From a virus, in the IMG/VR virus record IMGVR_UViG_3300021471_000007, positions 1 through 64,000 of that record: 64,000 nucleotides of DNA; one strand, 5' to 3'. Positions 1 through 15,073 of the stretch are shown here, one piece after another; within the stretch, counting starts at the first letter, position 1; each line of letters starts with the position of its first letter. Made by a program: the position numbers and the translations under genes. The notes under the pieces were generated by a model. That model worked only from the letters and a program-made list of their open reading frames with translations. It searched no databases and was not told the DNA's origin.

Positions 1-354
1 TGGTTTTAGGCGCTGGGGCTTTTTTTAGGTCGCTCTATTTGGTACCAAGCGGTAACAATTATTTTTTTTTTTTGCGGCGCCAGACGGAACGTTAGTTTAA
101 GCGGCACCGCTGCGGAACGTAATTTAAAGGCCAAGCCGGCCATCCGGATAGGCGCTGCATGGAACAACGTGGCGCTGAATATGGAAAACGGGCGCTGTAT
201 TTGTCCCTAAACAATAGTAAAAATGTTCGCACTTCCAAACAATCCAACGGTACCAAACGGAAACGCAAATCCGGAATGTGGACAGCGGCGCTAAATTGAT
301 TTATTGGAGCGGTGTCTTTAAGCGGAGTCGGTATGATAATTTAAGCGGCACCTG

Positions 355-620
355 GATATAGGACCAATTGGTCCAATTGGACCACGTGGTTATATAACGT
401 ATATAACCAATTGGTTAGTTACGTATATAACCAATTTGGATAGATACATATATATCCAATTGGATTAACGTATTGGTCCTAATTGGTTAGTTACGTTATA
501 TATATATGGAACGTATATAATGGCGTAACGTAACGTTATATATCCGCTATGACGAATACGTTTATACGTTATGGAACACGTTATACGGTACGTTACGTTA
601 ATACGTTATAATGGAATTGT
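355..620. repeat. Chain of overlapping palindromes and short repeats (candidate origin, terminus or packaging region)
   Basis: GGACCAATTGGTCC 361-374, GGTCCAATTGGACC 370-383, ACCACGTGGT 381-390, GTTATATAAC 389-398, TAACCAATTGGTTA 404-417, ATCCAATTGGAT 454-465; direct repeat AATTGGTTAGTTACGT at 409 and 481; no ORF of 60 aa or more. Confidence 0.8.
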
Positions 621-748
621 TACCTCTATGTTAATGGTTCTTTAATACTGGTGTTTATTCTTTAATATGATAAGTGCGGAATGCGCTCTTAATATGATAA
701 TGCGGGGAATTTGTTTGGAGCGGCGTGGAAATCGACAAATGTCGTATT

Positions 749-764
749 GCATAACTTTATATAC
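749..764 (+). promoter_or_regulatory. Archaeal TATA-box promoter
   Basis: GCATAACTTTATATAC, similar to the promoter motif at 2827, 13745 and 19802. Confidence 0.55.
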
Positions 765-895
765 TTTGAAGTTCAAAAAGTTATTAGAGTATGATTAACT
801 GCAAGATGTTAATTATATGTAAGCACGAAATATTGTAATAGAGTGGCGTTGCTTTTCGGAGCGATGTCATATATACAATATTGAGGTGAGTGCAA

Positions 896-1396
896 ATGGC
901 AATAAGTGTAGGAGAATACGAAGGCATAAGTTTGAGTAGAAAAAGAGGAGGTTCGAAGCGGTTCGATACAAAATTCACTAAAACGGAAATAAAAGCGATA
1001 TTAAAAGAACTGGCACAGCACAACGGAGAAATAAGGACAGATGCAGAAACAATAACTAAGGAACTTTTGAAAAGGAACAAAGTATTAGGAGCGAACAGGA
1101 TTGGATTCGAATTGAAGCAGTGGATTCACATAAATAATGCGGTTGTGGATTTTGTAGCACAGAACGGAAAGGAAAAGGCAAATGAGATATTACACAAAGC
1201 GGGATTAAGCACAGGAGATTTTCTCGGAGAGAGAGTGGATATCGATGTGAATACAAAAAAGATACTGCACAAAGGAAGTGAAGTGGAAGTCATTTTGTTA
1301 AATGCACGGAAACTTGACTATGCACACAAGACGGAATCCAGTTGGAGAAAATGCCTTTGTAGCGAATTCGGCAAACAATATCTAAATAGGGAATAG
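896..1396 (+). CDS. Hypothetical protein (first gene of the early arm)
   Basis: ORF with GAGGTGA RBS at 883-889; followed by a hairpin plus T-run. Confidence 0.8.
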   Translation: MAISVGEYEGISLSRKRGGSKRFDTKFTKTEIKAILKELAQHNGEIRTDAETITKELLKRNKVLGANRIGFELKQWIHINNAVVDFVAQNGKEKANEILHKAGLSTGDFLGERVDIDVNTKKILHKGSEVEVILLNARKLDYAHKTESSWRKCLCSEFGKQYLNRE

Positions 1397-1419
1397 GCAC
1401 AAATAACGCTTATGATATG

Positions 1420-1440
1420 AGGCGTGGTGCCTTTTTTTTA
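1420..1440 (+). terminator. Hairpin + oligo-T terminator
   Basis: AGGC-GTGGT-GCCT followed by a T-run just after the ORF ending at 1396. Confidence 0.5.
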
Positions 1441-1588
1441 TGAGGAACTTCTCGGTACCACGTGGAAACAGACACCCCCGCATCATAATATCATAATATT
1501 TATTCCTCCAAATTGTTCCAAATTAAGGGTAATCGGACTAAAATAGGCGCTCGATGTTGGCCAAGGCATGGTGTTTAAGGGCAAAACC

Positions 1589-1842
1589 TTGTGCCAAGCA
1601 GGAATTTTGGTGTTTGGGTATGTGTAGGCCTCAATATCTAAAATGCGGTGTGTGTTGTGTGCCATGGTGTGCCAAAACCTTTGGCACCTGTTTGGGAGCT
1701 TGTACCTATCAAATATGAAGGAATTTGGTATCTTGTGCCATGAAGTAGGCCCGGGACGTCTATAGCTATAGACATGGACCGCTTAAAACCATGGATTGGA
1801 TGCGTTTTATGATAGGGCATCTATAGACAAATCTATAGATGC
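1589..1842. repeat. Left operator-like array (GTGCCA repeats and TCTATAGA palindromes)
   Basis: GTGCCA at about 1591, 1659, 1669, 1735; palindrome GTCTATAGCTATAGAC 1758-1773; inverted repeat GCATCTATAGA-N4-TCTATAGATGC 1817-1842. Confidence 0.75.
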
Positions 1843-1999
1843 TCAGGTGCTCGTAGAGAGGTGTTTGGGATAGGAATAAAGCGTTCAATTTATTGAACAT
1901 GGAGAGAATTGGATATGATGGATAGTGTGGATATCGTGGAACACTTATGCGTTATGTTTTTATACTATGAAAACCAAATAAGATATGAGGTGATTTTTT

Positions 2000-2263
2000 A
2001 TGGTGCTAAATTATAAACATCAATATACTACTATTGAGTTACGGAAGGATACAAAACTCCGGCTTGACAAATTTAAGCGAAGTGGAATGAGTTATGATAA
2101 AACAATAACAGAAATGATAGATGAGTTGGAACGGCTTCTTGGAAAAGGTTCCTTAGTAAGCGTTGTATTTGAAAAAGAGGATTACGAGAAACTAAAAAAA
2201 ATGGCTTATTCTAATGGACTTGGTGTAACGGAATTAATCAAATACAAATTAATAAAAGAATAA
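2000..2263 (+). CDS. Small DNA-binding protein, ribbon-helix-helix/CopG-like (possibly two RHH units)
   Basis: TTIELRKDTKLRLDKFK...SYDKTITEMI and SVVFEKEDYEKLKKMA...GVTELIK, both RHH-like; GAGGTGA RBS. Confidence 0.7.
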   Translation: MVLNYKHQYTTIELRKDTKLRLDKFKRSGMSYDKTITEMIDELERLLGKGSLVSVVFEKEDYEKLKKMAYSNGLGVTELIKYKLIKE

Positions 2264-2354
2264 AAAAGTATGAATATAGGCAACACTAATTAAACACGTT
2301 CATACGGAATACAATATATATTGTATAAATAGGAATATAAAGGTATCGTTTTAG

Positions 2355-2702
2355 GTCTATAGATATCCTTATTATTATATACTGGCACAGGATTGTCTAT
2401 AGCGTCTGTACCTATCGAATTCAGGCGTTTGGACATCTATAGATATGTCTATAGATGCGGTTTTTATTTCAGCCCATACTTATCGAATTTGCAGGTTTGG
2501 AGAAAGGACATCTATAGCTATAGATGCGCCGGAGGTATGTTTTGGCACACAGTCCCGATTCCGGGTTGTTTGGATGCTTTTTATATTGCGGGAAGCACGC
2601 AGAACGCTTATTGAAAACATGGCACACGATGGCACACATGGCACAAAACTGACTTATCTTCTATATATGAAAGGTAGGACGCTCATACCTCAATTGGCAC
2701 AA
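2355..2702. repeat. Right operator-like array (mirror image of the left array)
   Basis: CATCTATAGA-N4-TCTATAGATG 2434-2457; palindrome CATCTATAGCTATAGATG 2509-2526; TGGCAC at about 2383, 2543, 2620, 2630, 2640, 2695. Confidence 0.75.
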
Positions 2703-2826
2703 AACACGCTTATTTGTTCAGGTTATTGAACATATTGTATATAGGAGCATATTCTGATAAAACAGGATACCTGTGGCCATGCCAAGGTTGTCCGCTTAAT
2801 GGATGACACTTCCGTGCGTTAACCAG

Positions 2827-2843
2827 AGCGATAAGTTTATATA
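2827..2843 (+). promoter_or_regulatory. Archaeal BRE-TATA promoter
   Basis: AGCGATAAGTTTATATA. Confidence 0.65.
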
Positions 2844-2908
2844 TAGTGAACACTATCTTATATTGTAATTATTATAGTGAGATAATGATAATTACGGATG
2901 GTGGTCAA

Positions 2909-3370
2909 ATGCTACATAAGTCGGATTATAATAATATGAAAGAATTAGATATTAGATACGGTACAAAACTTAATGATAAGGAATTAACTATTGCTAAACG
3001 GATACAAAACTGGAATTATATTGCTACTTTAAAATGTATTCAGGATTCAGGTGTTAATCATTATTCTGCTTCTAAAATACTAAAATGGCTCAGGAAAAAT
3101 GACGAAAGATATAGGAACGAAGTGCTATCTAAAAGACGGTTAAAAATCAGGAAGCAAAGAGAAATACGGCACTTAAATCATAATATTGATGTTGATAATG
3201 CGGTTTCATTACTTGGCATATTTTTCAATATAGAATTGAAAAACGAGGCTCGCAATCCCGAAACTGCCAGTGAGGATTGCGGTTTGCAAGACGAAGATGA
3301 CAATATCGGACATAATGATGGATTAGTGTCCGAACATGGTGTAAGCGTAGGCCCGGCATCGCCCATATAA
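2909..3370 (+). CDS. Hypothetical basic protein (3' end overlaps the structured RNA candidate)
   Basis: Open frame 2846-3370; ATG 2909 follows a GGTGG RBS-like site downstream of a TATA box. Confidence 0.6.
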   Translation: MLHKSDYNNMKELDIRYGTKLNDKELTIAKRIQNWNYIATLKCIQDSGVNHYSASKILKWLRKNDERYRNEVLSKRRLKIRKQREIRHLNHNIDVDNAVSLLGIFFNIELKNEARNPETASEDCGLQDEDDNIGHNDGLVSEHGVSVGPASPI

Positions 3371-3760
3371 AGTCGGTGCTTAGTTTTGGCAAGGATTAAC
3401 CTATCAAGACGAAAGGTCTCGGCACGAATTGCGAAGTAGGTTCGTGTTAGTCGGCAGAATTTATATTTAACAGGGTACCGGCGAAGCGGTTTGAGGCTAT
3501 GGCGGGCGTGTTTTGGATTATTATTTTTTGCTCGCCGTATTATATTTTTTAGGATTTCTTTATTTAAACATTAAAGGTTATCATTTTTGATAACCTGGTA
3601 GTTTTATGAAATGCGGATCTGGATTGCTAAATTACATCACACTCACAGAAACTGGCAAGCAGTTTGGATTCGCTCCATCGGGTTCTTCGTGTAATTTAAA
3701 GGCATCACGTCTTTGGTCACACCCCCAGGTGTTTTACACGGAGGACCCATTATTATTTAT
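3241..3760 (+). ncRNA. Candidate large structured RNA
   Basis: GC-richer region with many stems: CGCAATCC/GGATTGCG, TCGGACA/TGTCCGA, AGAC-GAAAG-GTCT, CACGAA/TTCGTG, TATGGCGGGCG/TGCTCGCCGTA (needs G-U pairs), AGGTTATCA/TGATAACCT, TAAATTACA/TGTAATTTA, AAACTG/CAGTTT. Confidence 0.5.
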
Positions 3761-3788
3761 TTATTATGAATTTTTAGGAGGGGATACT

Positions 3789-4016
3789 ATGAAAGAAACA
3801 CTTGTTGATTACGGAAAGAAAGAGGAGACGGAAGAAGAACAGGATGAAAATGAAACAAAAACTTTTGTTATAACTTGGTCTGAAACTGTTTGGTATAGGA
3901 CGGTTATTGATGCACACGATGAGGACGAGGCCTGGGATGCGTTTTGGGATGACGATGGAGATACGGAAGAAACAGGAAGAGATGTTAATGACGATGCGGA
4001 ACTGCAAGAAGTATAA
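3789..4016 (+). CDS. Very acidic 75-aa protein with N-terminal LxDY tag (possible DNA mimic)
   Basis: GGAGG RBS; starts MKETLVDY; about 28 D/E versus 6 K/R. Confidence 0.75.
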   Translation: MKETLVDYGKKEETEEEQDENETKTFVITWSETVWYRTVIDAHDEDEAWDAFWDDDGDTEETGRDVNDDAELQEV

Positions 4017-4119
4017 TATGAGTAAAAACAGGATTCGTTTTTAAAGGCGATTTTGCATTTTGATTTAGGTTTTGCATTTGAATTTAATTGTTTTATAATA
4101 TTAAATTAATTCTTACAAT

Positions 4120-4225
4120 CGGTTTACGGTTATGTCTGTGAGGCTCGGCGCTGAAAGTGCGTGAGTGCGTGCGGGGATGTGTCATGGAGCCGATGAGCGG
4201 TCTAACATCATGTAAAGGAGGTGTA
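4120..4225 (+). promoter_or_regulatory. GC-rich structured 5' leader downstream of a TATA-like box
   Basis: TTTTATAAT at 4091-4099; stems TTTAC/GTAAA, GGCTC/GAGCC, GCGC-TGAAA-GTGC; ends at the AGGAGGTG RBS. Confidence 0.45.
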
Positions 4226-4228
4226 AAT

Positions 4229-4399
4229 ATGTTAGGACATACAATAGAAATGATTAATATACTTGGAAAACTAATAAACAATAGCATAGATAGTGGATTA
4301 TCTTTGCTGGTTTTGTTAGTGTTTTTGGGTATATTGGTTCTTGCTGGGAGTAAAGTTTGGTCTTGGCTCGTAAAAATATTTAACGGCGTCAGAAAATGA
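4229..4399 (+). CDS. Small single-pass membrane protein
   Basis: AGGAGGTG RBS; hydrophobic segment LSLLVLLVFLGILVLAG. Confidence 0.7.
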   Translation: MLGHTIEMINILGKLINNSIDSGLSLLVLLVFLGILVLAGSKVWSWLVKIFNGVRK

Positions 4400-4413
4400 C
4401 GCCGGTGATGTTT

Positions 4414-4653
4414 ATGTTAAATAAATTATCGGACTACTATAATAGCGGATTAAACATAGGAATGCGTGTGAAAGTAGATTTGCTTAATGGTGCAGGTGCA
4501 TCTATTAATATGATTTCTGGTGATGATGATTATATTGATGGTACGGTAGTTGGATATAGTAAAATGGAAGTTACAATAAAAATAGAAGGACATGGATTCT
4601 TGGTATTACCAAGAGCATATAGAAAAAGATGGTATGATGGATGCGTGGTTTGA
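4414..4653 (+). CDS. SH3/KOW-like small protein, paralog 1 (LxDY tag)
   Basis: MLNKLSDY...IGMRVKV...GTVVGYS...RWYDGCVV; GGTGA RBS. Confidence 0.75.
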   Translation: MLNKLSDYYNSGLNIGMRVKVDLLNGAGASINMISGDDDYIDGTVVGYSKMEVTIKIEGHGFLVLPRAYRKRWYDGCVV

Positions 4654-4863
4654 GTGTTAAAACGGTTATTAGATTATTGTAAAAAACAAGACGATGGTTT
4701 ATATATCGGGATGCATGTAAAAGTCTCGCTTGGTGTTGGTTTGTATGATGCTATTGTAATTGAATTTGATAAATCATATGTTACGGTCAAAATAATTACA
4801 ACTGGGTTTAGGATGCAAATTATTCGTAAAAAACGTAAGTGGTATGATGGTGCAGTAATATAG
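4654..4863 (+). CDS. SH3/KOW-like small protein, paralog 2 (LxDY tag)
   Basis: MLKRLLDY...IGMHVKV...KWYDGAVI. Confidence 0.75.
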   Translation: MLKRLLDYCKKQDDGLYIGMHVKVSLGVGLYDAIVIEFDKSYVTVKIITTGFRMQIIRKKRKWYDGAVI

Positions 4864-4872
4864 GTGATGGCG

Positions 4873-5106
4873 ATGTTAAATAAATTATCGGATTATTCTA
4901 AACGTGGTATACATATAGGTATGACCGTGTTTATAGGAGGAGATAAATTAATTATATTTTATCCAAGTATCGACCCAAGGGAAAAATATAAAGGCACGGT
5001 TGTAGGTTATAGTGATAATTTAGTGCATGTTAAAATGGAATTTAATAAAAAAACATTGTCTATTATGAAGAAGGACTTTGTGTGGTATAATGGATGTGTG
5101 TTATAA
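4873..5106 (+). CDS. SH3/KOW-like small protein, paralog 3 (LxDY tag)
   Basis: MLNKLSDY...IGMTVFI...GTVVGYS...VWYNGCVL; AGGTGA RBS. Confidence 0.75.
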   Translation: MLNKLSDYSKRGIHIGMTVFIGGDKLIIFYPSIDPREKYKGTVVGYSDNLVHVKMEFNKKTLSIMKKDFVWYNGCVL

Positions 5107-5118
5107 TGAGGTGGTGTT

Positions 5119-5394
5119 ATGTATAAGTGGTGGAAAAAGTGGTATGATGCTATAAATAAGGTAGAGTTGGTTAAAGAATTGCCGGCATTACAAGACATAT
5201 TTAATAATATAGAAGACGAGGATGTTAAAAGGCGGGCACCTTTAATTATAAATAGTTTGTTTGAGGATTTAATTGATTTTTTATCTATAAATGAAAACGG
5301 AGGTGATTTCATGACGGACGAGTTCTATGAAAGAGAAGATGATTTAGGATTGGATATTGATATAGATGAACAGGAAGATGATGAGGAAGAATAA
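5119..5394 (+). CDS. Hypothetical protein with acidic tail
   Basis: GAGGTGG RBS; internal GGAGGTGA + ATG at 5311; D/E-rich C-terminus. Confidence 0.7.
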   Translation: MYKWWKKWYDAINKVELVKELPALQDIFNNIEDEDVKRRAPLIINSLFEDLIDFLSINENGGDFMTDEFYEREDDLGLDIDIDEQEDDEEE

Positions 5395-5423
5395 ATTAAT
5401 ATACAAGGAGGAGGTGAAATTAA

Positions 5424-5807
5424 ATGATAATTCAGAAATATATGTATGACGGCGTGATAGGATTAGCACAGGAACGTTTGGCTAAAGCAATTGACAAGGT
5501 GCATAAAAAATATAAAAGCAAAATTGATGATGCGGAAGAAAAAGCAGAAAAACTATTTGCAAAGGAAGTAGTAACACGGTGCTATGAAGGTAAGTTAGAA
5601 TTGAAATATGGTCCTGGACGTGGCTTTTATATTGAGTATGACAAAATGGAGAAATTGAAGGAAAAACACTGGAAAGAATACAGAAAATTAGAAGAACAGA
5701 AAATCAAGGAGCTGAAGGCACTTGACGAAAAATATAAAAAATGGAAACTAAAATTTATCAAAAACGTGGCTAAAGGCACGATGATAGATTTGCCTGTTTT
5801 TGATTAA
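5424..5807 (+). CDS. Helical hypothetical protein, paralog A
   Basis: GGAGGTGA RBS; similar to the next ORF (IDKVHKKY vs IDEVRKYY; KYKKWK vs KYNAWK). Confidence 0.8.
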   Translation: MIIQKYMYDGVIGLAQERLAKAIDKVHKKYKSKIDDAEEKAEKLFAKEVVTRCYEGKLELKYGPGRGFYIEYDKMEKLKEKHWKEYRKLEEQKIKELKALDEKYKKWKLKFIKNVAKGTMIDLPVFD

Positions 5808-5832
5808 AATAAAATAAAAGGAGGAGGATAAA

Positions 5833-6234
5833 ATGCAATTTAATGAATATGTAGCGGAGAAGCAAACAGAAATGGCAAAGTTGTTTCTTAATAGGAAAAT
5901 AGATGAAGTAAGGAAATACTATGCCGAACAAATAGAGGCAGAAGCAGACAAAATACGGGACAAAATATTGAGTGAAAATAAGAGGAAATTTATAAGAGTT
6001 AGTGGAGGACTCATGACTTTTCCTCTAATTCAAGTAAAGGATGCAGATATGATAAGAAACAAATACAAAAATGAATTTAATGAAGCGGTTGAACCAATTG
6101 AAAAGAAAAGAGATGCAGTAATCAGGCAATTAAAAGACAAATACAACGCTTGGAAAATGACGATGTTAAAAGCGTTGATGAACGGCAAGGCCATAGGGAT
6201 AGAACCAGCATACTACAATATAAAATACAAATAG
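5833..6234 (+). CDS. Helical hypothetical protein, paralog B
   Basis: GGAGGAGG RBS; paralog of 5424-5807. Confidence 0.8.
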   Translation: MQFNEYVAEKQTEMAKLFLNRKIDEVRKYYAEQIEAEADKIRDKILSENKRKFIRVSGGLMTFPLIQVKDADMIRNKYKNEFNEAVEPIEKKRDAVIRQLKDKYNAWKMTMLKALMNGKAIGIEPAYYNIKYK

Positions 6235-6270
6235 GCGGGACACAATGTCCCGTTTTTAATTTTTTATTCT
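6235..6270 (+). terminator. Hairpin + T-run terminator
   Basis: CGGGACA-CAA-TGTCCCG followed by TTTTTAATTTTTT. Confidence 0.7.
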
Positions 6271-6287
6271 TATTGAGGTGATTAATT

Positions 6288-6434
6288 ATGGAGAAGAAAG
6301 AATATAAATTGGGAATAACTTTGGATAGAACATTAGTAATTTTAGATGAGAATAAGGAAATAATTGGAAAGATACACCCAGAAAGTTTTGTAGATGTTAT
6401 AAAAAAAGTATTGTTTACAGGCATAAGGTATTAG
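6288..6434 (+). CDS. Small hypothetical protein (48 aa, below the ORF-track cutoff)
   Basis: GAGGTGA RBS, ATG 6288, MEKKEYKLGITLDRT..., TAG ending at 6434. Confidence 0.6.
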   Translation: MEKKEYKLGITLDRTLVILDENKEIIGKIHPESFVDVIKKVLFTGIRY

Positions 6435-6455
6435 AATGCAGTGGGGTGATTAATT

Positions 6456-6659
6456 ATGGAGATGGAAAATATATTATTTAGGGATGAAATTATAAACAAA
6501 GTAAAGGAAATAATGTCAAAAGATATAACAAATGAAAAAAAGAGGTTGTTATTAAATGAATTGGAAAACAAACATTATCAGGAAGTATTCATTAAAACGC
6601 ATTTGTGTTCGCATTGCGGAGCACTTGATGTTGAAATTTGGTTCAAAGAAGAATTTTAA
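6456..6659 (+). CDS. Hypothetical protein (CxxC)
   Basis: GGGGTGA RBS; LCSHCG. Confidence 0.65.
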   Translation: MEMENILFRDEIINKVKEIMSKDITNEKKRLLLNELENKHYQEVFIKTHLCSHCGALDVEIWFKEEF

Positions 6660-6672
6660 AGGAGGTGCTATT

Positions 6673-7899: not shown

Positions 7900-7913
7900 G
7901 AGGAGGTGTTATT

Positions 7914-8279: not shown

Positions 8280-8731
8280 AGTGTGTTCATTGCGGAAGAG
8301 AGTGTGATTCATATTTTGAAACTAAAAGCGGAAGACCGCTATGTATGAGGTGCAAAATATATTATTCAAAAAGTAGTAATGAATTGAGGTATGCTGATGA
8401 ATTTGAGGTTGAAATGATAAACTCTTTGTTAAATGATAGTAGCAACAAGCGGTTAAATATGAATTTTAATATAACGGGCGCTTATATAAGATTACACGAT
8501 ACAATAAAAAATATAGATTTAAATAAACCATATAATGGAAACAAAACCAGGTATCTGTTGTATTTTTATATGCCGGAATTAAATGATTTTACTTTTGATA
8601 TTATGTATGATGCGGATTTAAATTCGTTTTTATGTTCATCTGGCAAAACAAAAAAATACAAAACACTATTAGGTTGTTTTGTGGAAATGGCAAGACAGAT
8701 GAAAAAAATAATAAAAATAAGGAGGAATTAA
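8276..8731 (+). CDS. N-terminal Zn-finger hypothetical protein
   Basis: MKCVHCG...LCMRC. Confidence 0.75.
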   Translation: MKCVHCGRECDSYFETKSGRPLCMRCKIYYSKSSNELRYADEFEVEMINSLLNDSSNKRLNMNFNITGAYIRLHDTIKNIDLNKPYNGNKTRYLLYFYMPELNDFTFDIMYDADLNSFLCSSGKTKKYKTLLGCFVEMARQMKKIIKIRRN

Positions 8732-8732
8732 T

Positions 8733-9731
8733 ATGTGTGGAATAGGAGCATTGGTGATTAACAAGGAAGTAGATAATGAACGAAAAGAGAACATGATAGA
8801 AGGCATGTATAGAGCGTTAGAGAAACGTGGCTCGGATGCATCAGGAATGTTAACGATAGACAAAGACGGAGTGCCTTTTGTATACAAAAAACCGGTAGAA
8901 GCATCAGAATTTTTAGTGGATGTTGGATTCAGGAAGTTCTTAAAACAACATATAAAAAACAATATATTTGTGGTGCACACAAGAGCGAAAACAAAAGGAG
9001 AACCAGCAAACAATAACAATAACCACCCAATAATAGGAGATAGATACATAATAGTGCATAATGGTGTGGTATTGGATAGGTTGGATAAACTAATAAAGCA
9101 ATTAAACAAAAAACAATATGAACAGAAAAATATAGAGGTGGATTCATATGCAATAACGGTGCTATTAGACAAGTATGGTATAGAAGGATTAAGCAGTTTG
9201 GATTCAAGCAATGCAATAATAGGATATGATACAAAAGCCAAAAAGTTAATACTATGGAGGAACAAAAAAGAACTCCTTGTAGGTTATGGCAATGATATAT
9301 TTGTTGCGGCATCTAACAAGGAAGCAATAGAAAATGTATTTAACAAAAGAGAATATATATTAAATATCGTGGAGCATACAGAATATAATACGAATTATGT
9401 ATATTCGGATATGAAAGATAAAACACTATACGAAACAAAACTTAAGGATATAAATTTTAAAGCGATGCCAATATATTACAGGGCTAAAACGGTGGAAGAA
9501 ATAATCGACAAATTCAAGGGTTCGAGTGTGTGTGAAATAGACGGTATTTTCTATATAAAATTCATATCTGATTTGGAAAAGAAAACGAATAAGGCATTGA
9601 AGCGTGTATTCAGTAAATACAACGAATACTGGAAAGTAAGAGATACAAAACTGAGGCAATTTATAGAAATACTAAGCAAATATGAAAGTAATGAGTGGAA
9701 ACCGCACAAGCATAAGAGGTGGGGAAGATGA
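8733..9731 (+). CDS. Class II (Ntn) glutamine amidotransferase
   Basis: N-terminal MCGI, RGSDASG, HTRAKT, NNHP, VHNGV, EVDS. Confidence 0.93.
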   Translation: MCGIGALVINKEVDNERKENMIEGMYRALEKRGSDASGMLTIDKDGVPFVYKKPVEASEFLVDVGFRKFLKQHIKNNIFVVHTRAKTKGEPANNNNNHPIIGDRYIIVHNGVVLDRLDKLIKQLNKKQYEQKNIEVDSYAITVLLDKYGIEGLSSLDSSNAIIGYDTKAKKLILWRNKKELLVGYGNDIFVAASNKEAIENVFNKREYILNIVEHTEYNTNYVYSDMKDKTLYETKLKDINFKAMPIYYRAKTVEEIIDKFKGSSVCEIDGIFYIKFISDLEKKTNKALKRVFSKYNEYWKVRDTKLRQFIEILSKYESNEWKPHKHKRWGR

Positions 9732-10876
9732 AAACAAAATCATTTGGAATCGAAGTAGAATATCCGATGTGGGATTCTGGGGGAGGATACACGGCTTGGG
9801 TAGATGAGTTTAATATTCTGTCCAAAAAGTTACCAGGAAAGTTATACAGAGATGCAACACCGTGCGGAGAATATGCAACATCGGTGCACACGGATTACAA
9901 TGCTTTGTTGGATGAATTGTTTTCATCTTTCAAACAAATAATGGAAGCAGCAAACAATGACGGCGTATCTATTGGTCTAATAGGTGCATACGGTGGACTT
10001 AGAGAAACATGGAGCGGACATATGCATTTAGGCAAGGCTCCAGATAAGAAATTTACATATAAAGAACACGATGAATTAAAGCGGCAGTTGCATGGAGCAC
10101 AAACATTAATAGAGTTATTAGCACAAAACAAAGGTGATGGTACAAGAAAAGATAGGAGAGCAACTACACGGTCTTACTTTAGGAAATCTACTTTCTGGGC
10201 ACAAGAAACAGATAGAAATGTGAATTTGGCATGGAATGATTTAGGAACACTGGAATGTAGAATTCCGCCTTCATCGGATTTCTTTCATTTGGTATTTGTA
10301 TTAGCAACGATGAGGGCGTGGGCAAATTCAGAAATATATACATATGGATTATCATCAAATTGGGACCAAGCAATAAACAACGGTTCAGAAGGAAAGTATA
10401 TGATACCAACTCCAAACGGTGTTGAGATAGTATCATATCAGGCATATGTTACATATTGGCTCGAAAGGATAAAACCACAATTGGATGCAGAACTAAAAAC
10501 ACTTAAACAGAAATACAGGCACAAAGTAGAGGAATATAGGGAATTCTTACCATATACGACATTATCGGATGTAGTAACGCCTTGGACTAAAACAAAGTTA
10601 TTTAATAAGACAGCGGATTTAATAGTGAAAAAGCATACATATATAGATGGCATAAAATTAAATTTGTTGTTCCCAAACATAAAAGGAAAACTGGACAATA
10701 AAAAAATAATAGACATAATACAGCGTGTTGATAAAAGTGAGGAGTCAAAAGAATACAAAAGATTAAGATTATTTCAGGAAGCAATAAGGAGAGGAAAACC
10801 AACAATAGCAAAACCAGAAGACAGGGATAAAGTGAGGCTATATTTATCAAAGGAAATGATTAAGGAGGCGATATAG
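9728..10876 (+). CDS. COOH-NH2 ligase (glutamate-cysteine ligase/amidoligase fold)
   Basis: FGIEVEY (ExE), DAT..GEYAT, GHMHLG, TLECR; overlaps the GATase gene. Confidence 0.82.
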   Translation: MKTKSFGIEVEYPMWDSGGGYTAWVDEFNILSKKLPGKLYRDATPCGEYATSVHTDYNALLDELFSSFKQIMEAANNDGVSIGLIGAYGGLRETWSGHMHLGKAPDKKFTYKEHDELKRQLHGAQTLIELLAQNKGDGTRKDRRATTRSYFRKSTFWAQETDRNVNLAWNDLGTLECRIPPSSDFFHLVFVLATMRAWANSEIYTYGLSSNWDQAINNGSEGKYMIPTPNGVEIVSYQAYVTYWLERIKPQLDAELKTLKQKYRHKVEEYREFLPYTTLSDVVTPWTKTKLFNKTADLIVKKHTYIDGIKLNLLFPNIKGKLDNKKIIDIIQRVDKSEESKEYKRLRLFQEAIRRGKPTIAKPEDRDKVRLYLSKEMIKEAI

Positions 10877-11272
10877 TTGATATATGTATGTGCGCCACAT
10901 TATAAAACGGAAGATTTAACAGGTGATATAGCAGAGGAAATAGCAAAGGAAGCAGGTGTAGAGTTTGTAACAGGAACGGTGGATAATGCCATGTTTGTAT
11001 TAGAAATAGGCGGTATAGAAGACAAAGTGATAGATGGCAGCATACCGGATTTGTTGGTGGATGATAAAACACATACACAAATATTTAAAACCATATTTGA
11101 TAGAATATTTAATATACGAAAAACAACATTTAATACGGCATTATCCAACACATTTGATAGAAGGTATGCCAGATTGGAACTTACAAATAAAGTAAGATAT
11201 AGTGAAAAACACAGGAAACTGTTGGTAAAAACAGCAGCGGAAATATTAAGGGAGATTAAAAAACTCTTTTAA
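10877..11272 (+). CDS. Short or degenerate Zn-hydrolase-fold protein (N-formylglutamate amidohydrolase-like)
   Basis: VCAPH, FVLEIGG (His of DxHG missing), RLELT..VR; parallels the next gene. Confidence 0.55.
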   Translation: MIYVCAPHYKTEDLTGDIAEEIAKEAGVEFVTGTVDNAMFVLEIGGIEDKVIDGSIPDLLVDDKTHTQIFKTIFDRIFNIRKTTFNTALSNTFDRRYARLELTNKVRYSEKHRKLLVKTAAEILREIKKLF

Positions 11273-11325
11273 TTTTATTTTAAGGGATAGTGTTTAGGCA
11301 TTATTCCGAATAAAATAAAGGAGGT

Positions 11326-12102
11326 ATGAATATGAGTGTAACGAATTTTGGTGCAGGAGACGAAAATAGTGTTGTTATTTCGGTGCCGCATCATAAAGTA
11401 ATTAAAGTCAGGACAAGGCCGGTACGGATGTATGAAACGGAAGAAACCATGACAAAGGAAATAGGAAGGGAACTTGCTACTGAAACAAAATCGGCATTAG
11501 TATTAAATGAAACAGAAGTGGATGTAAATAATCCATATGACTTTTTTAAAAACGATGCGGAAATAAAAGAGCAATACTATAATGATATAAGGAAACTTAA
11601 ACCACGCTTGGTTTTGGATATACACGGGGCAGCAGACAAGGGACCATTGTTTCTTGGTTCCAATGTAAACGGAAAAAGGTATATGCGTGAGTATTACGAT
11701 AAACCTATAATGGAATCTGTTCCAAGACCGGATGTAGACATAGAATTCAGGAGGAAGATAGGCGATGTCACATCAAGAGGCATAGTAATACACAAGTTAT
11801 CTGAATTTCTGGCAAGACACGGATTGGTAGTTGGCATAGAGATGGTATATCCAGGAGGCAGAGTAATAAAAGAAACAGCAGGAATAAACACAGATAGTAT
11901 TGCTTTGGAAATAACAAAAAGAGTAAGGACAGACGATGAAAGACGGAGTCAGTTAATAGATGCGTTGTCTGAATTTATAAAGTGGTATAGGACAGGAGAA
12001 GATGAAGAAAACATAGACCATATAGAAAATGATGAAAGAAGGAGCGATGAAATAACATCGGAATTGGCACAGCATTCGCAAACAGAACGTTATATTGGCT
12101 GA
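11326..12102 (+). CDS. Zn-dependent amidohydrolase (N-formylglutamate amidohydrolase / poly-gamma-glutamate hydrolase-like)
   Basis: VVISVPH, E..T, LVLDIHG, Y.GG, ALEI..VR. Confidence 0.75.
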   Translation: MNMSVTNFGAGDENSVVISVPHHKVIKVRTRPVRMYETEETMTKEIGRELATETKSALVLNETEVDVNNPYDFFKNDAEIKEQYYNDIRKLKPRLVLDIHGAADKGPLFLGSNVNGKRYMREYYDKPIMESVPRPDVDIEFRRKIGDVTSRGIVIHKLSEFLARHGLVVGIEMVYPGGRVIKETAGINTDSIALEITKRVRTDDERRSQLIDALSEFIKWYRTGEDEENIDHIENDERRSDEITSELAQHSQTERYIG

Positions 12103-12125
12103 GGCCAATATTTCTTTTTTCTTTA
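12092..12125 (+). terminator. Hairpin + T-run terminator
   Basis: ATATTGGC-TGAG-GCCAATAT then TTCTTTTTT. Confidence 0.65.
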
Positions 12126-12137
12126 TGAGGTGTTGGT

Positions 12138-12401
12138 ATGAAAAAACGATTAATAGATTATGTAAAGAACGATGGATGTGGCATTGGTTGGGGAATTGTG
12201 AGAGAGGATTTATGTGAAGACCATATGTATGGAGAATATGTTGCAATTGATTCCATGATACGCTTCGCCGGATGTCTGGTGACTATAATAGAGGAACACT
12301 CTGATTACTTTAAAATCGCTGAGGATCCGGAAGAGTGTTGTTGGACCGAGGAAATGTTTTCTGAACTTCATATAAATAACAGATATGGGGTGGTTAGATG
12401 A
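12138..12401 (+). CDS. SH3/KOW-like small protein with LxDY tag
   Basis: MKKRLIDY...GCLVTI...WTEEMF. Confidence 0.72.
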   Translation: MKKRLIDYVKNDGCGIGWGIVREDLCEDHMYGEYVAIDSMIRFAGCLVTIIEEHSDYFKIAEDPEECCWTEEMFSELHINNRYGVVR

Positions 12402-12724
12402 AAAACAAATTGAATGATTATATAACGGATGATGTAATTTTTAGTATAACAATAGCAGGAAATGAACTAAAAACAAAAATAGGAAGGACTGCACTCGAGG
12501 AATTCATAGACGGTCCAATGAATACTACAAACTCTATAATGTTTTTTGTAGGACTATTGGATAACCTAACATCAGATGGAAATAAGGTTTCAGTTGAATA
12601 TATAAGTGACCATACAGAAGAAATTTTGGCAAAACTCACGGCAGAGGTGAGTAAATATGCATTTGAACAATATATGAAGGATATCATTAAAAAACTTAAT
12701 CTTGAAGTATTGGTGGAGGTTTGA
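12398..12724 (+). CDS. Hypothetical protein with LxDY tag
   Basis: MKNKLNDY; start overlaps the previous stop. Confidence 0.75.
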   Translation: MKNKLNDYITDDVIFSITIAGNELKTKIGRTALEEFIDGPMNTTNSIMFFVGLLDNLTSDGNKVSVEYISDHTEEILAKLTAEVSKYAFEQYMKDIIKKLNLEVLVEV

Positions 12725-12727
12725 TAT

Positions 12728-13024
12728 ATGAAAATAAAAATAATAAATTCGGGACACAGGCGGTTTAGATACAAAAAATACGATGATGACATCAATGATG
12801 GAATCACACTGGATTTTTCTTCATTTGCATATCCAGGATATGAAAGGATTGGTATGAACGAAAGTGTGGTTTTGCATATAGAAAACAAAATAACAGAGGA
12901 AGATATTATTAAATACTTTAAGAATATGTTTTGGCAAGACCAAGAAGAATTGTTAAGGCGGTTGAACAAATACAGAGCGGCACCGCTTAATATACAAAGA
13001 AATAATAATAGTGTTAATGAGTAG
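12728..13024 (+). CDS. Hypothetical protein
   Basis: GGAGGT RBS; co-oriented with neighbours. Confidence 0.7.
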   Translation: MKIKIINSGHRRFRYKKYDDDINDGITLDFSSFAYPGYERIGMNESVVLHIENKITEEDIIKYFKNMFWQDQEELLRRLNKYRAAPLNIQRNNNSVNE

Positions 13025-13090
13025 CGGCATAGCCATACGGCTGCGGAAAGTGCTCAGGAGGAGCGTGTACCGTTGTGTCATGCCGCTATT
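13021..13090. ncRNA. Small multi-stem structured element
   Basis: TAGCGGCAT/ATGCCGCTA closing stem enclosing AGCC-ATAC-GGCT and GCTC-AGGAG-GAGC hairpins. Confidence 0.45.
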
Positions 13091-13179
13091 CTCCATATAT
13101 GTCTATCTGGTACCAGATGGGAACGAAGTCGTGTAAAAAAACCGTAACCTTTATATTCCTATTTAGCCAATATATATGT

Positions 13180-13713
13180 ATGGTAGGAATAATAGATAGA
13201 ACCGAAGGTGCGGCGCAGTATATATTTAAACAGCGTGCAAAAGGTTTAGGATACAGGCAAATTGCAAGAGGATTAAAAGCGAATTTCGGTTTAAGCGTTT
13301 CACACATGACCGTTAAAAACTTCATAGAAAACAAATCTGGAGACATGCAATATTTGATACAAGGAAACAACGAATTAAAAGAAGAAACAGAAGAACTGGT
13401 AAAAGAAACGGTTAGGGAGTTGAAGATACTTAAAAAAAGGATGTGGGAGCTTCTTGATAAAGTTGATTATAAAGGCGATTCACGTGCTATGGTACAAACT
13501 GCTTCTGAAATAAGGAAAATATTAGAGACACAAGAACGCATAATGGATGTAATTACTAACCCAAGGCAAACTACAAACGTAAATATTTCGGATTTGAATT
13601 TAAGGATAGAAAATGTAATTCAAAATAACTTCATTGCAATATTACAGAAATTAGAAAAGCGTGGATTAATAAAAATCAAAGGAACAGAAAGCGAATTAAA
13701 ATCCTCATTATAA
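13180..13713 (+). CDS. HTH + coiled-coil protein, terminase small subunit-like (leaderless)
   Basis: GLGYRQIARGLKANFGLSVSHMTV HTH, helical body, TTNVNI tail; TTTATAT about 25-30 nt upstream of ATG 13180. Confidence 0.55.
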   Translation: MVGIIDRTEGAAQYIFKQRAKGLGYRQIARGLKANFGLSVSHMTVKNFIENKSGDMQYLIQGNNELKEETEELVKETVRELKILKKRMWELLDKVDYKGDSRAMVQTASEIRKILETQERIMDVITNPRQTTNVNISDLNLRIENVIQNNFIAILQKLEKRGLIKIKGTESELKSSL

Positions 13714-13744
13714 ATATTTCTTTTTAGGATAAATATGGAATTGT

Positions 13745-13764
13745 GAAGCGATAGCTTTATATAC
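13745..13764 (+). promoter_or_regulatory. BRE-TATA promoter (20-mer identical to 19802-19821)
   Basis: GAAGCGATAGCTTTATATAC; ATG 13785 follows with no RBS (leaderless). Confidence 0.8.
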
Positions 13765-13784
13765 GATGGTACCCAAATAGTAAT

Positions 13785-14069
13785 ATGACTGAAAAAAGGC
13801 TGCAACTAATATTCGGCAACACAACATTATTTAGGCTATTAGATGAGCTAATAATGAATAGACAGTATAGAACAATGACACAACTGGCACAGGATGCAAA
13901 TATAAGCAGAACTACATTGTTGAAACTAACACAAAAATTAAAAGAAACGAATATAATTAGTAGAACAAGGCGTGGACGTGAAACGTTGATACGACTCAGC
14001 AAAAACAGAATAGCAAAACAATTATGCGGTCTTGCATATGAAGTTGAGGAAGTATGGAAGAAGCAATGA
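13785..14069 (+). CDS. Winged-HTH transcriptional regulator
   Basis: TMTQLAQDANISRTTL...L.ETNII.RTRRGRE. Confidence 0.85.
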   Translation: MTEKRLQLIFGNTTLFRLLDELIMNRQYRTMTQLAQDANISRTTLLKLTQKLKETNIISRTRRGRETLIRLSKNRIAKQLCGLAYEVEEVWKKQ

Positions 14070-15073
14070 AAGGCTGGGTAACCATTTTAAAGGGCGAACA
14101 ATCAGATTTAATGGCTAATGATGAAAAAAATCCCTCATGGAGACCTATAGACGAAGTGGATGAACCACAATCGAGACAAGTTGTAGATTCGGAATTAATA
14201 TTTGACATTGACGGAGATGATTACGAACCAGCGAGGATGTTAGCACAAAACTTGGAAAATGAGTTATTCAGCCAGAACATTCCATTCTTAAGGTTTACTT
14301 CAGGAAGATTGTTTCACTATTCGGTCTTCATTGATCATGCATCAACATTTGATCCGGCGCACATGATCGATTATTATAAAAAAAATAAAAGCGAATTTGA
14401 TAAGAGGCATTATGTTTATAACTTTGCAAAAAAAATGAGGTATGCTGTATTTAAATATATATTAGATAAGGTGGCACCGGTTAAAGGCGCTAATATTGAC
14501 TGTGGCCTCATGAAATCAAAGAGACATTTAATACGTATTTGTGGTGGTCGGCACTCCTCCGGTTATTATAAGTCGCTCCTATCCAAAATTCCCGACCACC
14601 AACCACATATCAAAAAAGATGATGTAGTATATCCAAAGTCAATAAATTATTGGTTTGTAAATGATTTTATTACATCATTTGCATATAAATATCATTTAAG
14701 GCCAATTGTCCACAGGGGAAAAAGAGATAAAAAACAAAAACATATTAAATGGATTGAAAAAATATTTGAAATTGAAATAGACGATGGGAGACACCGCGTA
14801 GTAAACTTGATACTTGCACCGTATCTGGTAAATATCGTTGGAATGGATGTTGATAAAGCTACAGATAAAATATATGAGTGGGTTGAACATAACAAAGAAT
14901 TATCATACACACAAATAACAAGAGATTATATAAAGTATCAGGTTGAATATGCATTAAAGCGCGAATTACAACCACTATCAAAGGCAAGTCTAAGGTATTA
15001 TTTTAGTGAGAAAATACAAAAGAAACTATGTGGATACTATTATGATAATACATTAAAGGGGTTTAGTAAATGA
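14054..15073 (+). CDS. AEP DNA primase with C-terminal PriX-like domain
   Basis: IFDID, TSGRLFH, RHLIR primase motifs; WIEKI...DDGRHR...LAPYLVNI resembles PriX. Confidence 0.8.
   Translation: MEEAMKGWVTILKGEQSDLMANDEKNPSWRPIDEVDEPQSRQVVDSELIFDIDGDDYEPARMLAQNLENELFSQNIPFLRFTSGRLFHYSVFIDHASTFDPAHMIDYYKKNKSEFDKRHYVYNFAKKMRYAVFKYILDKVAPVKGANIDCGLMKSKRHLIRICGGRHSSGYYKSLLSKIPDHQPHIKKDDVVYPKSINYWFVNDFITSFAYKYHLRPIVHRGKRDKKQKHIKWIEKIFEIEIDDGRHRVVNLILAPYLVNIVGMDVDKATDKIYEWVEHNKELSYTQITRDYIKYQVEYALKRELQPLSKASLRYYFSEKIQKKLCGYYYDNTLKGFSK

What the first reader, a model, noticed from the sequence alone, without database searches (positions are those of the whole stretch)
1..14300. Leading 14 kb is almost free of GATC (and apparently CTAG) while the rest of the genome is not
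Seen by eye: only two GATC (about 3616 and 12324) in 1-14,300 despite very many GAT trinucleotides, versus roughly 30 in the next 14 kb of same-strand coding DNA (starting at about 14333, 14351, 14364). I saw no CTAG in the first 14 kb, and AGCT is rare there. Inference: this end enters the cell first and must survive restriction before protective functions act (early anti-defence genes, the MTase at 24958), as with the first-entering DNA of T5/T7-like phages. This would predict staged DNA injection in an archaeal virus and mark this end as the leading one.
Basis: partly seen in the sequence, partly recalled or inferred. Interest (0 to 1): 0.72.

Follow-up and report, generated by a model that had tools for sequence, protein, structure and literature searches.

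The report
Restriction-site-free early module of archaeal virus
A 15-kb block of small early-type genes in an uncultured, probably archaeal, head-tail virus has lost the short palindromes that restriction enzymes cut, while the other 60 kb keeps them; related viruses have similar blocks, so this part of the genome seems to face host restriction unprotected.

Summary
In 1-14,300, GATC occurs twice (3616, 12324) against 22-25 expected. CTAG and CGCG never occur (19 and 8-13 expected), and AGCT occurs 7 times (24-27 expected). Of 1,171 words of 4-6 bases, these four palindromes are the four most depleted. Synonymous-codon shuffles, Markov models and context-dependent codon choice rule out low C content or codon usage.

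On the circular map the zone runs from 73.7 kb across the contig junction to 13.4 kb. It is not bounded by the contig end. That end is a 189-bp overlap, so no physical end has been shown.

Both zone borders fall in intergenic regions, and the zone holds about 30 mostly orphan small ORFs upstream of the replication genes.

Ten distant relatives lack GATC, CTAG, GTAC, AGCT or CGCG genome-wide. Four of the five closest also have a small-ORF block with extra palindrome loss.

Best reading: selection by Type II restriction is concentrated on an early-exposed module, as in T5 and T7-like phages. Staged DNA entry is inferred, not shown.

Main rival: the module was imported from a lineage that avoids these sites genome-wide.

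The pattern is new for archaeal viruses, but the principle is known.

The parts
1..13400 (.). Window part of the palindrome-depleted zone. The whole zone is genome 73,701 -> junction -> 13,401 (14.76 kb); the first 1.36 kb lies beyond the window at genome 73,701-75,060.
   Evidence: Circular two-changepoint fit on pooled GATC+CTAG+CGCG+AGCT: 6 sites against about 97 expected, LLR 65.5. Support intervals: start 73.70-74.00 kb, end 13.10-13.75 kb. Shuffle and Markov tests.
1..189 (.). Terminal overlap: copy of genome 75,061-75,248 (99.5% identical, one T-run indel). Could be an assembly overlap or a direct terminal repeat.
   Evidence: blastn of the contig ends. A Logan contig from run X3 extends 100 nt beyond position 1 (table 8).
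190..889 (.). Repeat-dense non-coding region inside the zone (direct and inverted repeats rich in ACGT, GCGC and GGCC). Candidate origin, packaging or regulatory region. It has no GATC, CTAG, CGCG or AGCT.
   Evidence: the repeat finder; motif counts.
3616..3619 (.). One of the two GATC sites left in the zone, at the start of the acidic-protein ORF 3606-4016.
12324..12327 (.). The second GATC site left in the zone, in ORF 12138-12401.
1758..1771 (.). 14-bp palindrome TCTATAGCTATAGA holding one of the four AGCT sites in the zone. A second copy is at about 2510-2523. These look like operator sites, so the AGCT may be kept by function.
   Evidence: the repeat finder D2/I1; AGCT positions 1764 and 2516.
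3606..4016 (+). Small, very acidic protein (136 aa, pI 4.1, net charge -23). Candidate DNA mimic or anti-restriction protein; a lead only.
   Evidence: Charge calculation. No Pfam or PHROG hit. Atlas model is low confidence with no usable hit.
5119..5394 (+). Small, very acidic protein (91 aa, pI 4.1, net charge -20, 32% D+E). Candidate DNA mimic; a lead only.
13025..13200 (.). Right border of the zone: an intergenic stretch with a 12-nt GC-rich inverted repeat (13019-13030 / 13080-13091), followed by a TATA-like A/T-rich element. The first AGCT beyond it is at 13448.
13785..14069 (+). Winged-helix HTH regulator just outside the zone, directly upstream of the primase gene.
   Evidence: Pfam HTH_11 and related families, all below the gathering scores.
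14054..15073 (+). Primase-like protein with a PriX domain, the first replication gene. It holds the first cluster of GATC (14333, 14351, 14365) and the first CGCG (14795).
   Evidence: Pfam PF18689, E 3.9e-9; homologues in DPANN MAGs; site positions.
18698..18701 (.). First CTAG in the genome after a CTAG-free span from 72,121 across the junction. A strain variant in run X4 lacks it (C>T).
24958..25761 (+). Beta-class DNA N6-adenine/N4-cytosine methyltransferase, target unknown. It lies outside the zone.
   Evidence: PF01555, E 1e-45; PDB 2zie, E 1.4e-26; NCBIfam hits.

Best explanation
The zone is an early-gene module. It begins at an AT-rich intergenic region at 73.8-74.3 kb, crosses the contig junction and ends at an intergenic hairpin at about 13.1 kb.

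Shown: selection acting on the DNA itself has removed the recognition sites of several Type II restriction systems from this module. GATC, CTAG, CGCG and AGCT are almost or wholly gone. ACWGT and AGWCT are strongly reduced. GTAC, GTNNAC and ACNNGT are reduced to about half. Codons are chosen according to their neighbours so that these palindromes never form. The remaining 60 kb is not purged.

Inferred: this module meets host restriction before the virus's counter-measures work, while sites elsewhere are shielded. The shield could be late entry of the remaining DNA, as in T5 first-step transfer or the slow entry of T7-like phages. It could also be early anti-restriction products, or both together. 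Restriction would then select on only part of the genome, as shown experimentally for T5 and murciaviruses.

Not shown: that the module is transcribed early, which end enters first, and that entry is staged.
For: 1. Motif-specific depletion under three null models, with the four top-ranked words of 1,171 all 4-bp palindromes.
2. Context-dependent codon choice in the zone. Asp before a C-starting codon is GAT 1 / GAC 7, against 174/46 elsewhere in the zone and 23/8 in 13.1-28.6 kb. Leu CTA before a G-starting codon is 0 of 95, against 35 of 204 elsewhere. Ile ATC after a G-ending codon is 0 of 41. Ser AGC before a T-starting codon is 0 of 34.
3. More palindromic classes are depleted only in the zone: ACWGT 3 against 15.3 and AGWCT 1 against 10.4.
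4. The borders for four motifs coincide within about 1.3 kb on each side and fall in intergenic regions.
5. Codon usage changes smoothly across the border. Block 8.3-13.0 kb correlates better with the block outside (r 0.93) than with the rest of the zone (0.89). The border is therefore not a general compositional break.
6. All ten distant relatives lack GATC, CTAG, GTAC, AGCT, CGCG, ACGT or GGCC genome-wide, so these motifs are real targets in this virus group.
7. Four of the five closest relatives have a 5-13.5-kb block of small ORFs with extra loss: 11 observed against 55.8 expected, 63 against 159, 48 against 105, and 17 against 66. In G004, GATC is 0 against 16.9 in the block while 56 sites remain elsewhere. 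These blocks share no detectable protein homology with the G000 zone.
8. The broadest motif sets (six or more) occur only in such blocks, never genome-wide.
9. Archaeal Type II systems for CTAG, GATC, GTAC, CGCG and AGCT are on record (PMC11033074).
10. Precedent exists for restriction acting only on first-entering DNA (PMC12455610; bioRxiv 10.1101/866236).
Against: - No physical terminus is known. The zone straddles the contig junction, so if the contig ends were the real ends, 1.36 kb of the zone would enter last.
- There are no expression data, so 'early' rests on gene content and position.
- No recognised anti-restriction gene lies in the zone.
- Outside the zone GATC is at expectation (ratio 1.05). 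The present host may therefore simply lack a GATC system, which fits the relic reading equally well.
- In G002 the block also contains the RNase HII and methyltransferase genes, so it is not purely 'pre-replication'.
- G005-G010 show no block, though most are fragments.
- The closest relative, a 56.8-kb contig with a primase 56% identical, could not be fetched.
Confidence: 0.55

Rival explanations
1. Mosaic relic. The module was recently acquired by recombination from a related virus that avoids these palindromes genome-wide, or it circulates among viruses and keeps the 'memory' of several past hosts. The present virus is under no such selection, and the depletion is decaying passively.
For: Relatives with genome-wide loss of the same motifs exist. 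G007 and G010 lack GATC, AGCT, CGCG and ACGT. G001, G004 and G005 lack CTAG. The rest of G000 shows no GATC, AGCT or CGCG avoidance at all. The borders lie in intergenic regions, where modules are usually exchanged. Early regions are the most mosaic parts of tailed-virus genomes (established knowledge). Imports that bring in forbidden sites would be lost, which biases what we see towards 'more depleted' blocks.
Against: The zone offers about 1,950 single-substitution routes to the four motifs, yet only 6 sites exist. By my estimate, a relic would have to be younger than about 3% neutral divergence. The zone is compositionally continuous with its neighbour outside. No relative avoids genome-wide as many motifs as the zone does; sets of six or more occur only in small-ORF blocks. 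The relic idea therefore still needs a cause specific to such blocks. In G004 and G002 the motifs lost in the block are partly depleted in the rest of the same genome, which looks like graded selection rather than import.
Confidence: 0.27
2. Self-inflicted selection. The virus makes early site-specific nucleases that degrade host DNA, as Davison proposed for T5 A1. Only the viral DNA present or unprotected at that time, the zone, must lack their sites.
For: The idea is published for T5 first-step-transfer DNA (bioRxiv 10.1101/866236). The zone is full of ORFs of unknown function.
Against: No nuclease fold was recognised in the zone. The Cas4-like PD-(D/E)XK nuclease lies outside it at 25972-26664. 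Four to seven different specificities would need as many enzymes. The reading also still needs staged entry or another shield for the other 60 kb.
Confidence: 0.06
3. Tolerance through repair. The whole genome enters at once. Cuts outside the zone are resealed by a virion-borne ligase and end-repair protein (the 1113-aa protein after the portal gene). The early genes must stay uncut so that they can be transcribed and shut restriction down.
For: G002 has a homologue (38% identity over 524 aa) and also has the largest depleted block. The BASEL study credits DNA ligation with a part in T5's restriction resistance (PMC8594841).
Against: The genome outside the zone holds about 400 sites for the four motifs, so it would be cut into hundreds of pieces, two motifs giving blunt ends by their known isoschizomers. 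Faithful rejoining is implausible. G001, G003 and G004 have blocks but no detected homologue of that protein. Packaging of the protein into virions is unproven.
Confidence: 0.05
4. Artefact of base composition, codon usage or amino-acid content of the early genes (low C).
For: GC skew is high (0.44-0.47) at 4-8 kb, so the coding strand is C-poor there.
Against: The synonymous shuffle that keeps proteins and the region's own codon usage gives 22 GATC and 19 CTAG, against 2 and 0 observed. C at third positions is 0.10 in all blocks and GAT/GAC and ATC usage are the same. One-off neighbour words are as frequent as outside. Other C-containing palindromes (ACGT, CATG, CCGG, GGCC, GCGC) are not depleted.
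Confidence: 0.01

Closest known systems
First-step-transfer (FST) region of phage T5 and its insensitivity to EcoRI
   Same: The restriction sites that matter are those in the first-entering, pre-early part of the genome, and sites elsewhere are tolerated. That part is a block of small, poorly known early ORFs beside repeat-rich non-coding DNA (bioRxiv 10.1101/866236; summarised in PMC12455610).
   Different: In T5 the two-step entry, the physical end and the stop signal are experimentally known. Here none of them is. T5's FST lies in a 10-kb terminal repeat, whereas here the only repeat is a 189-bp overlap and the zone spans it. The zone is cleared of at least four to seven 4-5-bp palindromes, not one 6-bp site. 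The host is probably archaeal.
Leading (early-injected) region of T7-like Autographiviridae (Murciavirus and the Mme2I Type I system; T7 Ocr)
   Same: Selection by restriction acts on part of the genome, the DNA that enters first and carries variable anti-defence genes. Motifs elsewhere do not cause restriction (PMC12455610).
   Different: That case concerns a Type I bipartite motif, one or a few sites, and podoviruses with transcription-coupled entry. This is a long-tailed virus (it has a tape-measure protein) with Type II-like 4-bp palindromes and dozens of expected sites removed. No Ocr-like gene was recognised; there are only two very acidic small proteins as candidates.
Genome-wide palindrome avoidance in archaeal tailed viruses (HF1-group haloviruses lacking GATC and CTAG; HRTV-7 also AGCT)
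   Same: The motifs are the same (GATC, CTAG, AGCT) and so is the presumed cause, host Type II restriction or methylation-directed defence (PMC7230728). The IMG/VR relatives found here behave the same way, with zero GATC, CTAG, GTAC, AGCT or CGCG genome-wide.
   Different: In this genome the avoidance is confined to 20% of the DNA and the rest is at expectation. That regional pattern is not described in the halovirus papers I read.
Leading regions of conjugative plasmids
   Same: [quoted passage not shown]
   Different: A survey of 1,751 plasmids found that the leading region is not consistently depleted in 4-8-bp palindromes (PMC13478746). Plasmid leading DNA enters single-stranded. Here the depletion is extreme.

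Membership tests
Restriction-site (Type II palindrome) avoidance | Specific short palindromes are far below the expectation from composition and coding, while their one-off neighbour words are not | tested here: met
   GATC 2 against 22-25, CTAG 0 against 19-20, CGCG 0 against 8-13, AGCT 7 against 24-27. One-off words 636 against 633.
Restriction-site (Type II palindrome) avoidance | Avoidance is achieved by synonymous or neighbour-dependent codon choice, that is, selection on DNA rather than protein | tested here: met
   GAT before C-starting codons 1/8 in the zone against 23/31 outside; CTA before G-starting codons 0/95; ATC after G-ending codons 0/41; AGC before T-starting codons 0/34.
Restriction-site (Type II palindrome) avoidance | Cognate restriction systems exist in the host | not testable with these tools
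   The host is unknown. Archaeal systems for CTAG, GATC, GTAC, CGCG and AGCT are on record (PMC11033074), and relatives avoid the same motifs.
Leading-region / first-step-transfer type restriction evasion (T5, T7-like) | Depletion is confined to one contiguous part of the genome, with sites tolerated elsewhere | tested here: met
   zone 73,701 to 13,401, LLR 65.5; rest of the genome at or near expectation.
Leading-region / first-step-transfer type restriction evasion (T5, T7-like) | The depleted part lies at the fixed physical end that enters the cell first | not testable with these tools
   The contig has a 189-bp overlap. Only Logan contigs were available, not raw reads. The zone straddles the junction.
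Leading-region / first-step-transfer type restriction evasion (T5, T7-like) | Stepwise or slow genome entry | not testable with these tools
   Needs infection experiments. The only sequence feature at the right border is a 12-nt inverted repeat.
Leading-region / first-step-transfer type restriction evasion (T5, T7-like) | An early-expressed anti-restriction function is encoded in the depleted part | tested here: inconclusive
   No Pfam or PHROG anti-restriction family found. Two very acidic small proteins are candidates only.
Genome-wide palindrome avoidance (HF1-group haloviruses, phage K type) | The motif is absent or nearly absent over the whole genome | tested here: not met
   G000 has 157 GATC, 61 CTAG and 164 AGCT overall. 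The feature is met in relatives G001-G010.

The most novel reading that the evidence does not exclude
A clade of uncultured archaeal head-tail viruses delivers or exposes its genome in stages. A 5-15-kb module of small early genes meets the host's Type II restriction enzymes alone and has therefore been purged of up to seven palindromic motifs. Products of that module then make the rest of the genome immune. This virus has taken the strategy furthest, with no genome-wide avoidance left. It would be the first evidence for T5/T7-like staged genome entry, and for early anti-restriction proteins, in viruses of archaea. The sequence pattern alone would then mark the leading region and candidate anti-defence genes in metagenomic viral genomes.
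Probability: 0.3. Interest if true: 0.8.

Novelty: new member of a known kind. Interest (0 to 1): 0.6.

Why it matters
Almost nothing is known about how archaeal tailed viruses deliver their DNA or counter restriction. Here, sequence alone marks a sharply bounded module in which restriction sites are not tolerated. The pattern recurs in related viruses whose blocks share no detectable protein homology with this one.

This gives three testable leads: which DNA is exposed first, where the physical end should lie, and which orphan genes to test for anti-restriction activity. The two very acidic proteins are the first candidates.

It also shows that genome-wide averages can miss restriction avoidance completely. 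Averaged over the whole genome, this virus shows no palindrome avoided by the criterion used here (observed/expected below 0.3). Surveys of metagenomic viruses should therefore scan by region.

Tried and rejected
- **Composition or codon artefact:** rejected.
- **Near-identical or close relatives:** megablast of 1-14,300 against GenBank phages found no match. Single-protein scans of IMG/VR with the primase, the major capsid protein and the 385-aa zone protein found none. The primase alignment found none in IMG/VR.
- The closest relative (P0002, 56% identical primase, 56.8-kb contig) and the long TerL-relative contigs could therefore not be fetched through it.
- **Metagenome scan with the primase alignment:** gave only 3.3- and 6.5-kb contigs.
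- **Genome scan:** gave an Aenigmatarchaeota MAG contig with only 1.2 kb upstream of the primase gene.
- **Primase search in 371 genomes of that phylum:** led to a 79.3-kb contig with 382-bp inverted terminal repeats. It shares only the primase and shows no avoidance, so it is not a relative of the zone.
- **Terminus mapping:** all six runs that hold the sequence are kept as Logan contigs, so no read starts or ends can be seen. Parts without cover in run X1 prove nothing.
- **Strain variants from runs X2-X4:** the 26 listed variants in the zone create no new site. Only about one site creation is expected, so the test has no power.
- **Protein atlas searches of the two acidic proteins:** no usable hit and low-confidence models. 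I therefore ran no structure predictions.
- **Target of the methyltransferase:** cannot be read from its homologues.
- **Earlier findings of this scan:** no look-alike stretches in other genomes.

Full report
**What the DNA is.** The window is the first 64 kb of a single 75,248-bp viral contig.
- Its two ends overlap by 189 bp at 99.5% identity, with one T-run indel.
- Genes on the minus strand from 71.0 kb down to 28.6 kb encode the large terminase, portal, major capsid protein, tape-measure protein and tail proteins.
- Plus-strand genes run from 71.1 kb across the junction to 28.6 kb.
- They include a primase-like protein with a PriX domain, RNase HII, a DNA methyltransferase and a Cas4-like nuclease.
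- The primase has homologues in DPANN archaeal MAGs.
- The runs that hold the sequence are hydrothermal-vent, marine and sediment metagenomes.
- It is therefore an uncultured, probably archaeal, long-tailed virus. Its host is unknown.

**The observation.**
- GATC occurs only at 3616 and 12324 before 14333.
- There are 33 GATC in the next 14.3 kb.
- The first CTAG is at 18,698.
- AGCT is rare.
- I also found that CGCG is absent before 14,795.

**Three null models agree.**
- For 1-14,300 the max-order Markov expectations are GATC 25.0, CTAG 19.7, CGCG 12.8 and AGCT 23.7.
- A shuffle of synonymous codons keeps every protein and the region's own codon usage. It gives 22.4+-3.5, 19.0+-3.6, 8.4+-2.6 and 26.7+-4.2. 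GTAC is also low (16 observed against 33.4). None of 2,000 shuffles reached the observed values.
- The next 14.3 kb on the same strand is at expectation under the same test.
- So is the structural region for GATC (ratio 1.05), CGCG (0.95) and AGCT (0.86).
- In an unbiased scan of 1,171 words of 4-6 bases, the four most under-represented words in the region are exactly these four palindromes.
- Among degenerate palindromes, ACWGT (3 against 15.3) and AGWCT (1 against 10.4) are strongly depleted in the zone. ACNNGT and GTNNAC are reduced to about half. None of these is depleted next door.

**It is not low C content or codon usage.**
- C at third codon positions is 0.10 in every block of the genome.
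- GAT/GAC and ATC usage are the same everywhere.
- Words one substitution away from GATC are as common in the zone as outside (636 against 633).
- Codons are chosen according to their neighbours. In the zone, Asp before a C-starting codon is GAT once and GAC seven times. Before other codons it is 174/46, and in the adjoining region before C it is 23/8.
- CTA never precedes a G-starting codon (0 of 95, against 35 of 204 otherwise). ATC never follows a G-ending codon (0 of 41). AGC never precedes a T-starting codon (0 of 34).
- This is selection on the DNA word itself.

**Where the zone really is.**
- On the circularised unit, the pooled four motifs give a maximum-likelihood zone from 73,701 across the junction to 13,401.
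- It is 14.76 kb long and holds 6 sites where the outside rate predicts about 97 (log-likelihood ratio 65.5).
- The left border follows the last AGCT and GATC at 73,689 and 73,696. It opens into a roughly 490-bp AT-rich non-coding stretch.
- The right border is an intergenic stretch at 13,025-13,200 with a 12-nt inverted repeat and a TATA-like element.
- The CTAG-free span is wider, from 72,121 to 18,697.
- The 'leading 14 kb' is therefore partly a product of where the contig was opened. The zone starts about 1.36 kb before the contig end.
- The zone also contains the repeat-dense non-coding region at 190-889.
- Two of the four AGCT sites left in the zone sit in 14-bp palindromes that look like operators.
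- Paralogous genes (35% identity) flank the junction.

**Content of the zone.**
- It holds about 30 plus-strand ORFs, and nearly all have no Pfam or PHROG match.
- There are tandem families of small paralogues.
- Two proteins are very acidic: 3606-4016 with net charge -23, and 5119-5394 with net charge -20.
- Their charge recalls DNA-mimic anti-restriction proteins, but nothing confirms that.
- A winged-helix regulator and the primase gene follow directly after the zone.

**Relatives.** An alignment of terminases found IMG/VR contigs with 26-34% terminase identity, and I read ten of them whole.
- All ten lack some 4-bp palindromes completely, genome-wide.
- GATC is 0 or 1 against 77-155 expected in eight of the ten.
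- CTAG is 0 against 67-80 expected in three.
- GTAC is 0 in two.
- AGCT is 0 against 92-200 expected in four.
- CGCG and ACGT are 0 in two, and GGCC is 0 or 1 in two.
- The motifs missing from this virus's zone are therefore the usual restriction targets of this virus group.

Four of the five closest relatives also have one block of small ORFs (median 69-94 aa). It is usually transcribed divergently from the rest. In it, palindromes that the genome otherwise tolerates are also missing.

| Relative | Block | Sites observed | Sites expected |
|---|---|---|---|
| G001 | 1.7-8.7 kb | 11 | 55.8 |
| G002 | 7.6-21.1 kb | 63 | 159 |
| G003 | 30.2-35.5 kb | 48 | 105 |
| G004 | 7.7-14.5 kb | 17 | 66 |

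- In G004 the block has no GATC (16.9 expected) while 56 sites remain elsewhere. That is the same picture as here.
- These blocks share no detectable protein homology with this zone.
- Sets of six or more avoided motifs occur only in such blocks, never over a whole genome.

**Interpretation.** The palindromic nature of the words, their match to known archaeal Type II systems (PMC11033074), and the behaviour of the relatives and of haloarchaeal tailed viruses (PMC7230728) make restriction avoidance the cause. I hold that with high confidence.

Why it is regional is less certain.
- A restriction cut anywhere in a naked genome is lethal. Regional avoidance therefore implies that the rest of the DNA is not exposed in the same way.
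- The published precedents are T5 and T7-like murciaviruses.
  - In T5, only EcoRI sites in the first-step-transfer DNA are cleaved (bioRxiv 10.1101/866236).
  - In murciaviruses, only a Type I motif in the first-injected region causes restriction (PMC12455610).
- By analogy, I think the zone is the early-exposed module. Its products, delayed entry of the remaining DNA, or both would shield the other 60 kb.
- Shown: selection is motif-specific and region-specific, the borders lie in intergenic DNA, and the pattern recurs in relatives.
- Inferred: early expression, the order of entry and the existence of an anti-restriction function.

**The main rival.** The zone may have been imported from a lineage that avoids these motifs genome-wide.
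- In favour: GATC, AGCT and CGCG outside the zone are fully at expectation, so the present host may lack these systems.
- Against:
  - The zone offers about 1,950 single-substitution routes to the four motifs but has only 6 sites, so by my estimate a relic would have to be very young.
  - Its codon usage is continuous with the neighbouring DNA.
  - No relative avoids as many motifs genome-wide as these blocks do.
  - In G002 and G004 the same motifs are partly depleted in the rest of the genome, which suggests graded selection.

Two minor rivals, a virus-made nuclease and tolerance through repair, are listed with their weaknesses.

The claim that this contig end leads and that injection is staged cannot be judged.
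- The end is an assembly overlap or a short terminal repeat that lies inside the zone.
- Only assembled Logan contigs of the runs were available, so termini could not be mapped.

**Novelty.**
- Restriction avoidance is known, and so is its concentration on first-entering DNA in a few bacteriophages.
- I found no report of it for archaeal viruses in four relevant full-text searches.
- A large plasmid survey found no consistent palindrome depletion in leading regions (PMC13478746).
- I therefore rate this as a new member of a known kind. It is an unusually clean example, and it makes genome delivery and early counter-defence in archaeal viruses testable.

Noticed in passing
genome 74,274-74,768 (L001:10274-10768) and window 890-1396: Two paralogous plus-strand genes (35% identity, E 2e-34) flank the repeat-dense non-coding region that holds the contig junction. 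This may be a trace of an old terminal duplication.
   Followed up: partly
window 4396-5106; also 12138-12724: Three tandem paralogues of 69-85 aa (43-45% identity) share an N-terminal LxDY...G..IGM motif. Two more distant members lie near the end of the zone. This is an expanded family of small early proteins of unknown function.
   Followed up: partly
window 3606-4016 and 5119-5394: Two very acidic small proteins (pI 4.1, net charge -23 and -20) lie early in the zone. Their charge resembles DNA-mimic anti-restriction proteins such as Ocr. There are no database matches and the atlas models are low confidence.
   Followed up: partly
IMG/VR relatives G007 (47.7 kb) and G010 (33.3 kb), loci L106-L108 and L114-L115: These two relatives lack four palindromes completely, genome-wide: GATC, AGCT, CGCG and ACGT (0 against 27-200 expected each). 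G008 and G009 lack GATC and AGCT. G006 lacks GATC and GGCC.
   Followed up: partly
G139:C5 (loci L128-L131), 79,289 bp: This contig in a MAG of the Aenigmatarchaeota phylum has 382-bp inverted terminal repeats (94% identical) and a primase 34% identical to the one here. Nothing else is shared and there is no palindrome avoidance. It is probably a different linear virus or plasmid.
   Followed up: partly
window 18698 and 18794: A strain variant in run X4 (sediment metagenome) has C>T changes at 18698 and 18797 that remove the first CTAG (18698) and the GATC at 18794. The edge of the CTAG-free span therefore differs between strains.
   Followed up: partly
window 26921-27241 and 25972-26664: A SemiSWEET-like transporter homologue (E 1.3e-12, below the curated cut-off) and a Cas4-like PD-(D/E)XK nuclease lie in the replication module.
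   Followed up: no
window 5552-5718: A Logan contig of the probable source run (X1) replaces 165 nt with 162 unrelated letters, and the long contig ends at 5784. This is strain heterogeneity inside the zone.
   Followed up: no
window 28581-64000 (whole structural region to 71,050): TGCA and CCGG are over-represented (ratios 1.17 and 1.32). GTAC, CTAG and ACGT are mildly under-represented (0.72-0.78) against synonymous shuffles.
   Followed up: no
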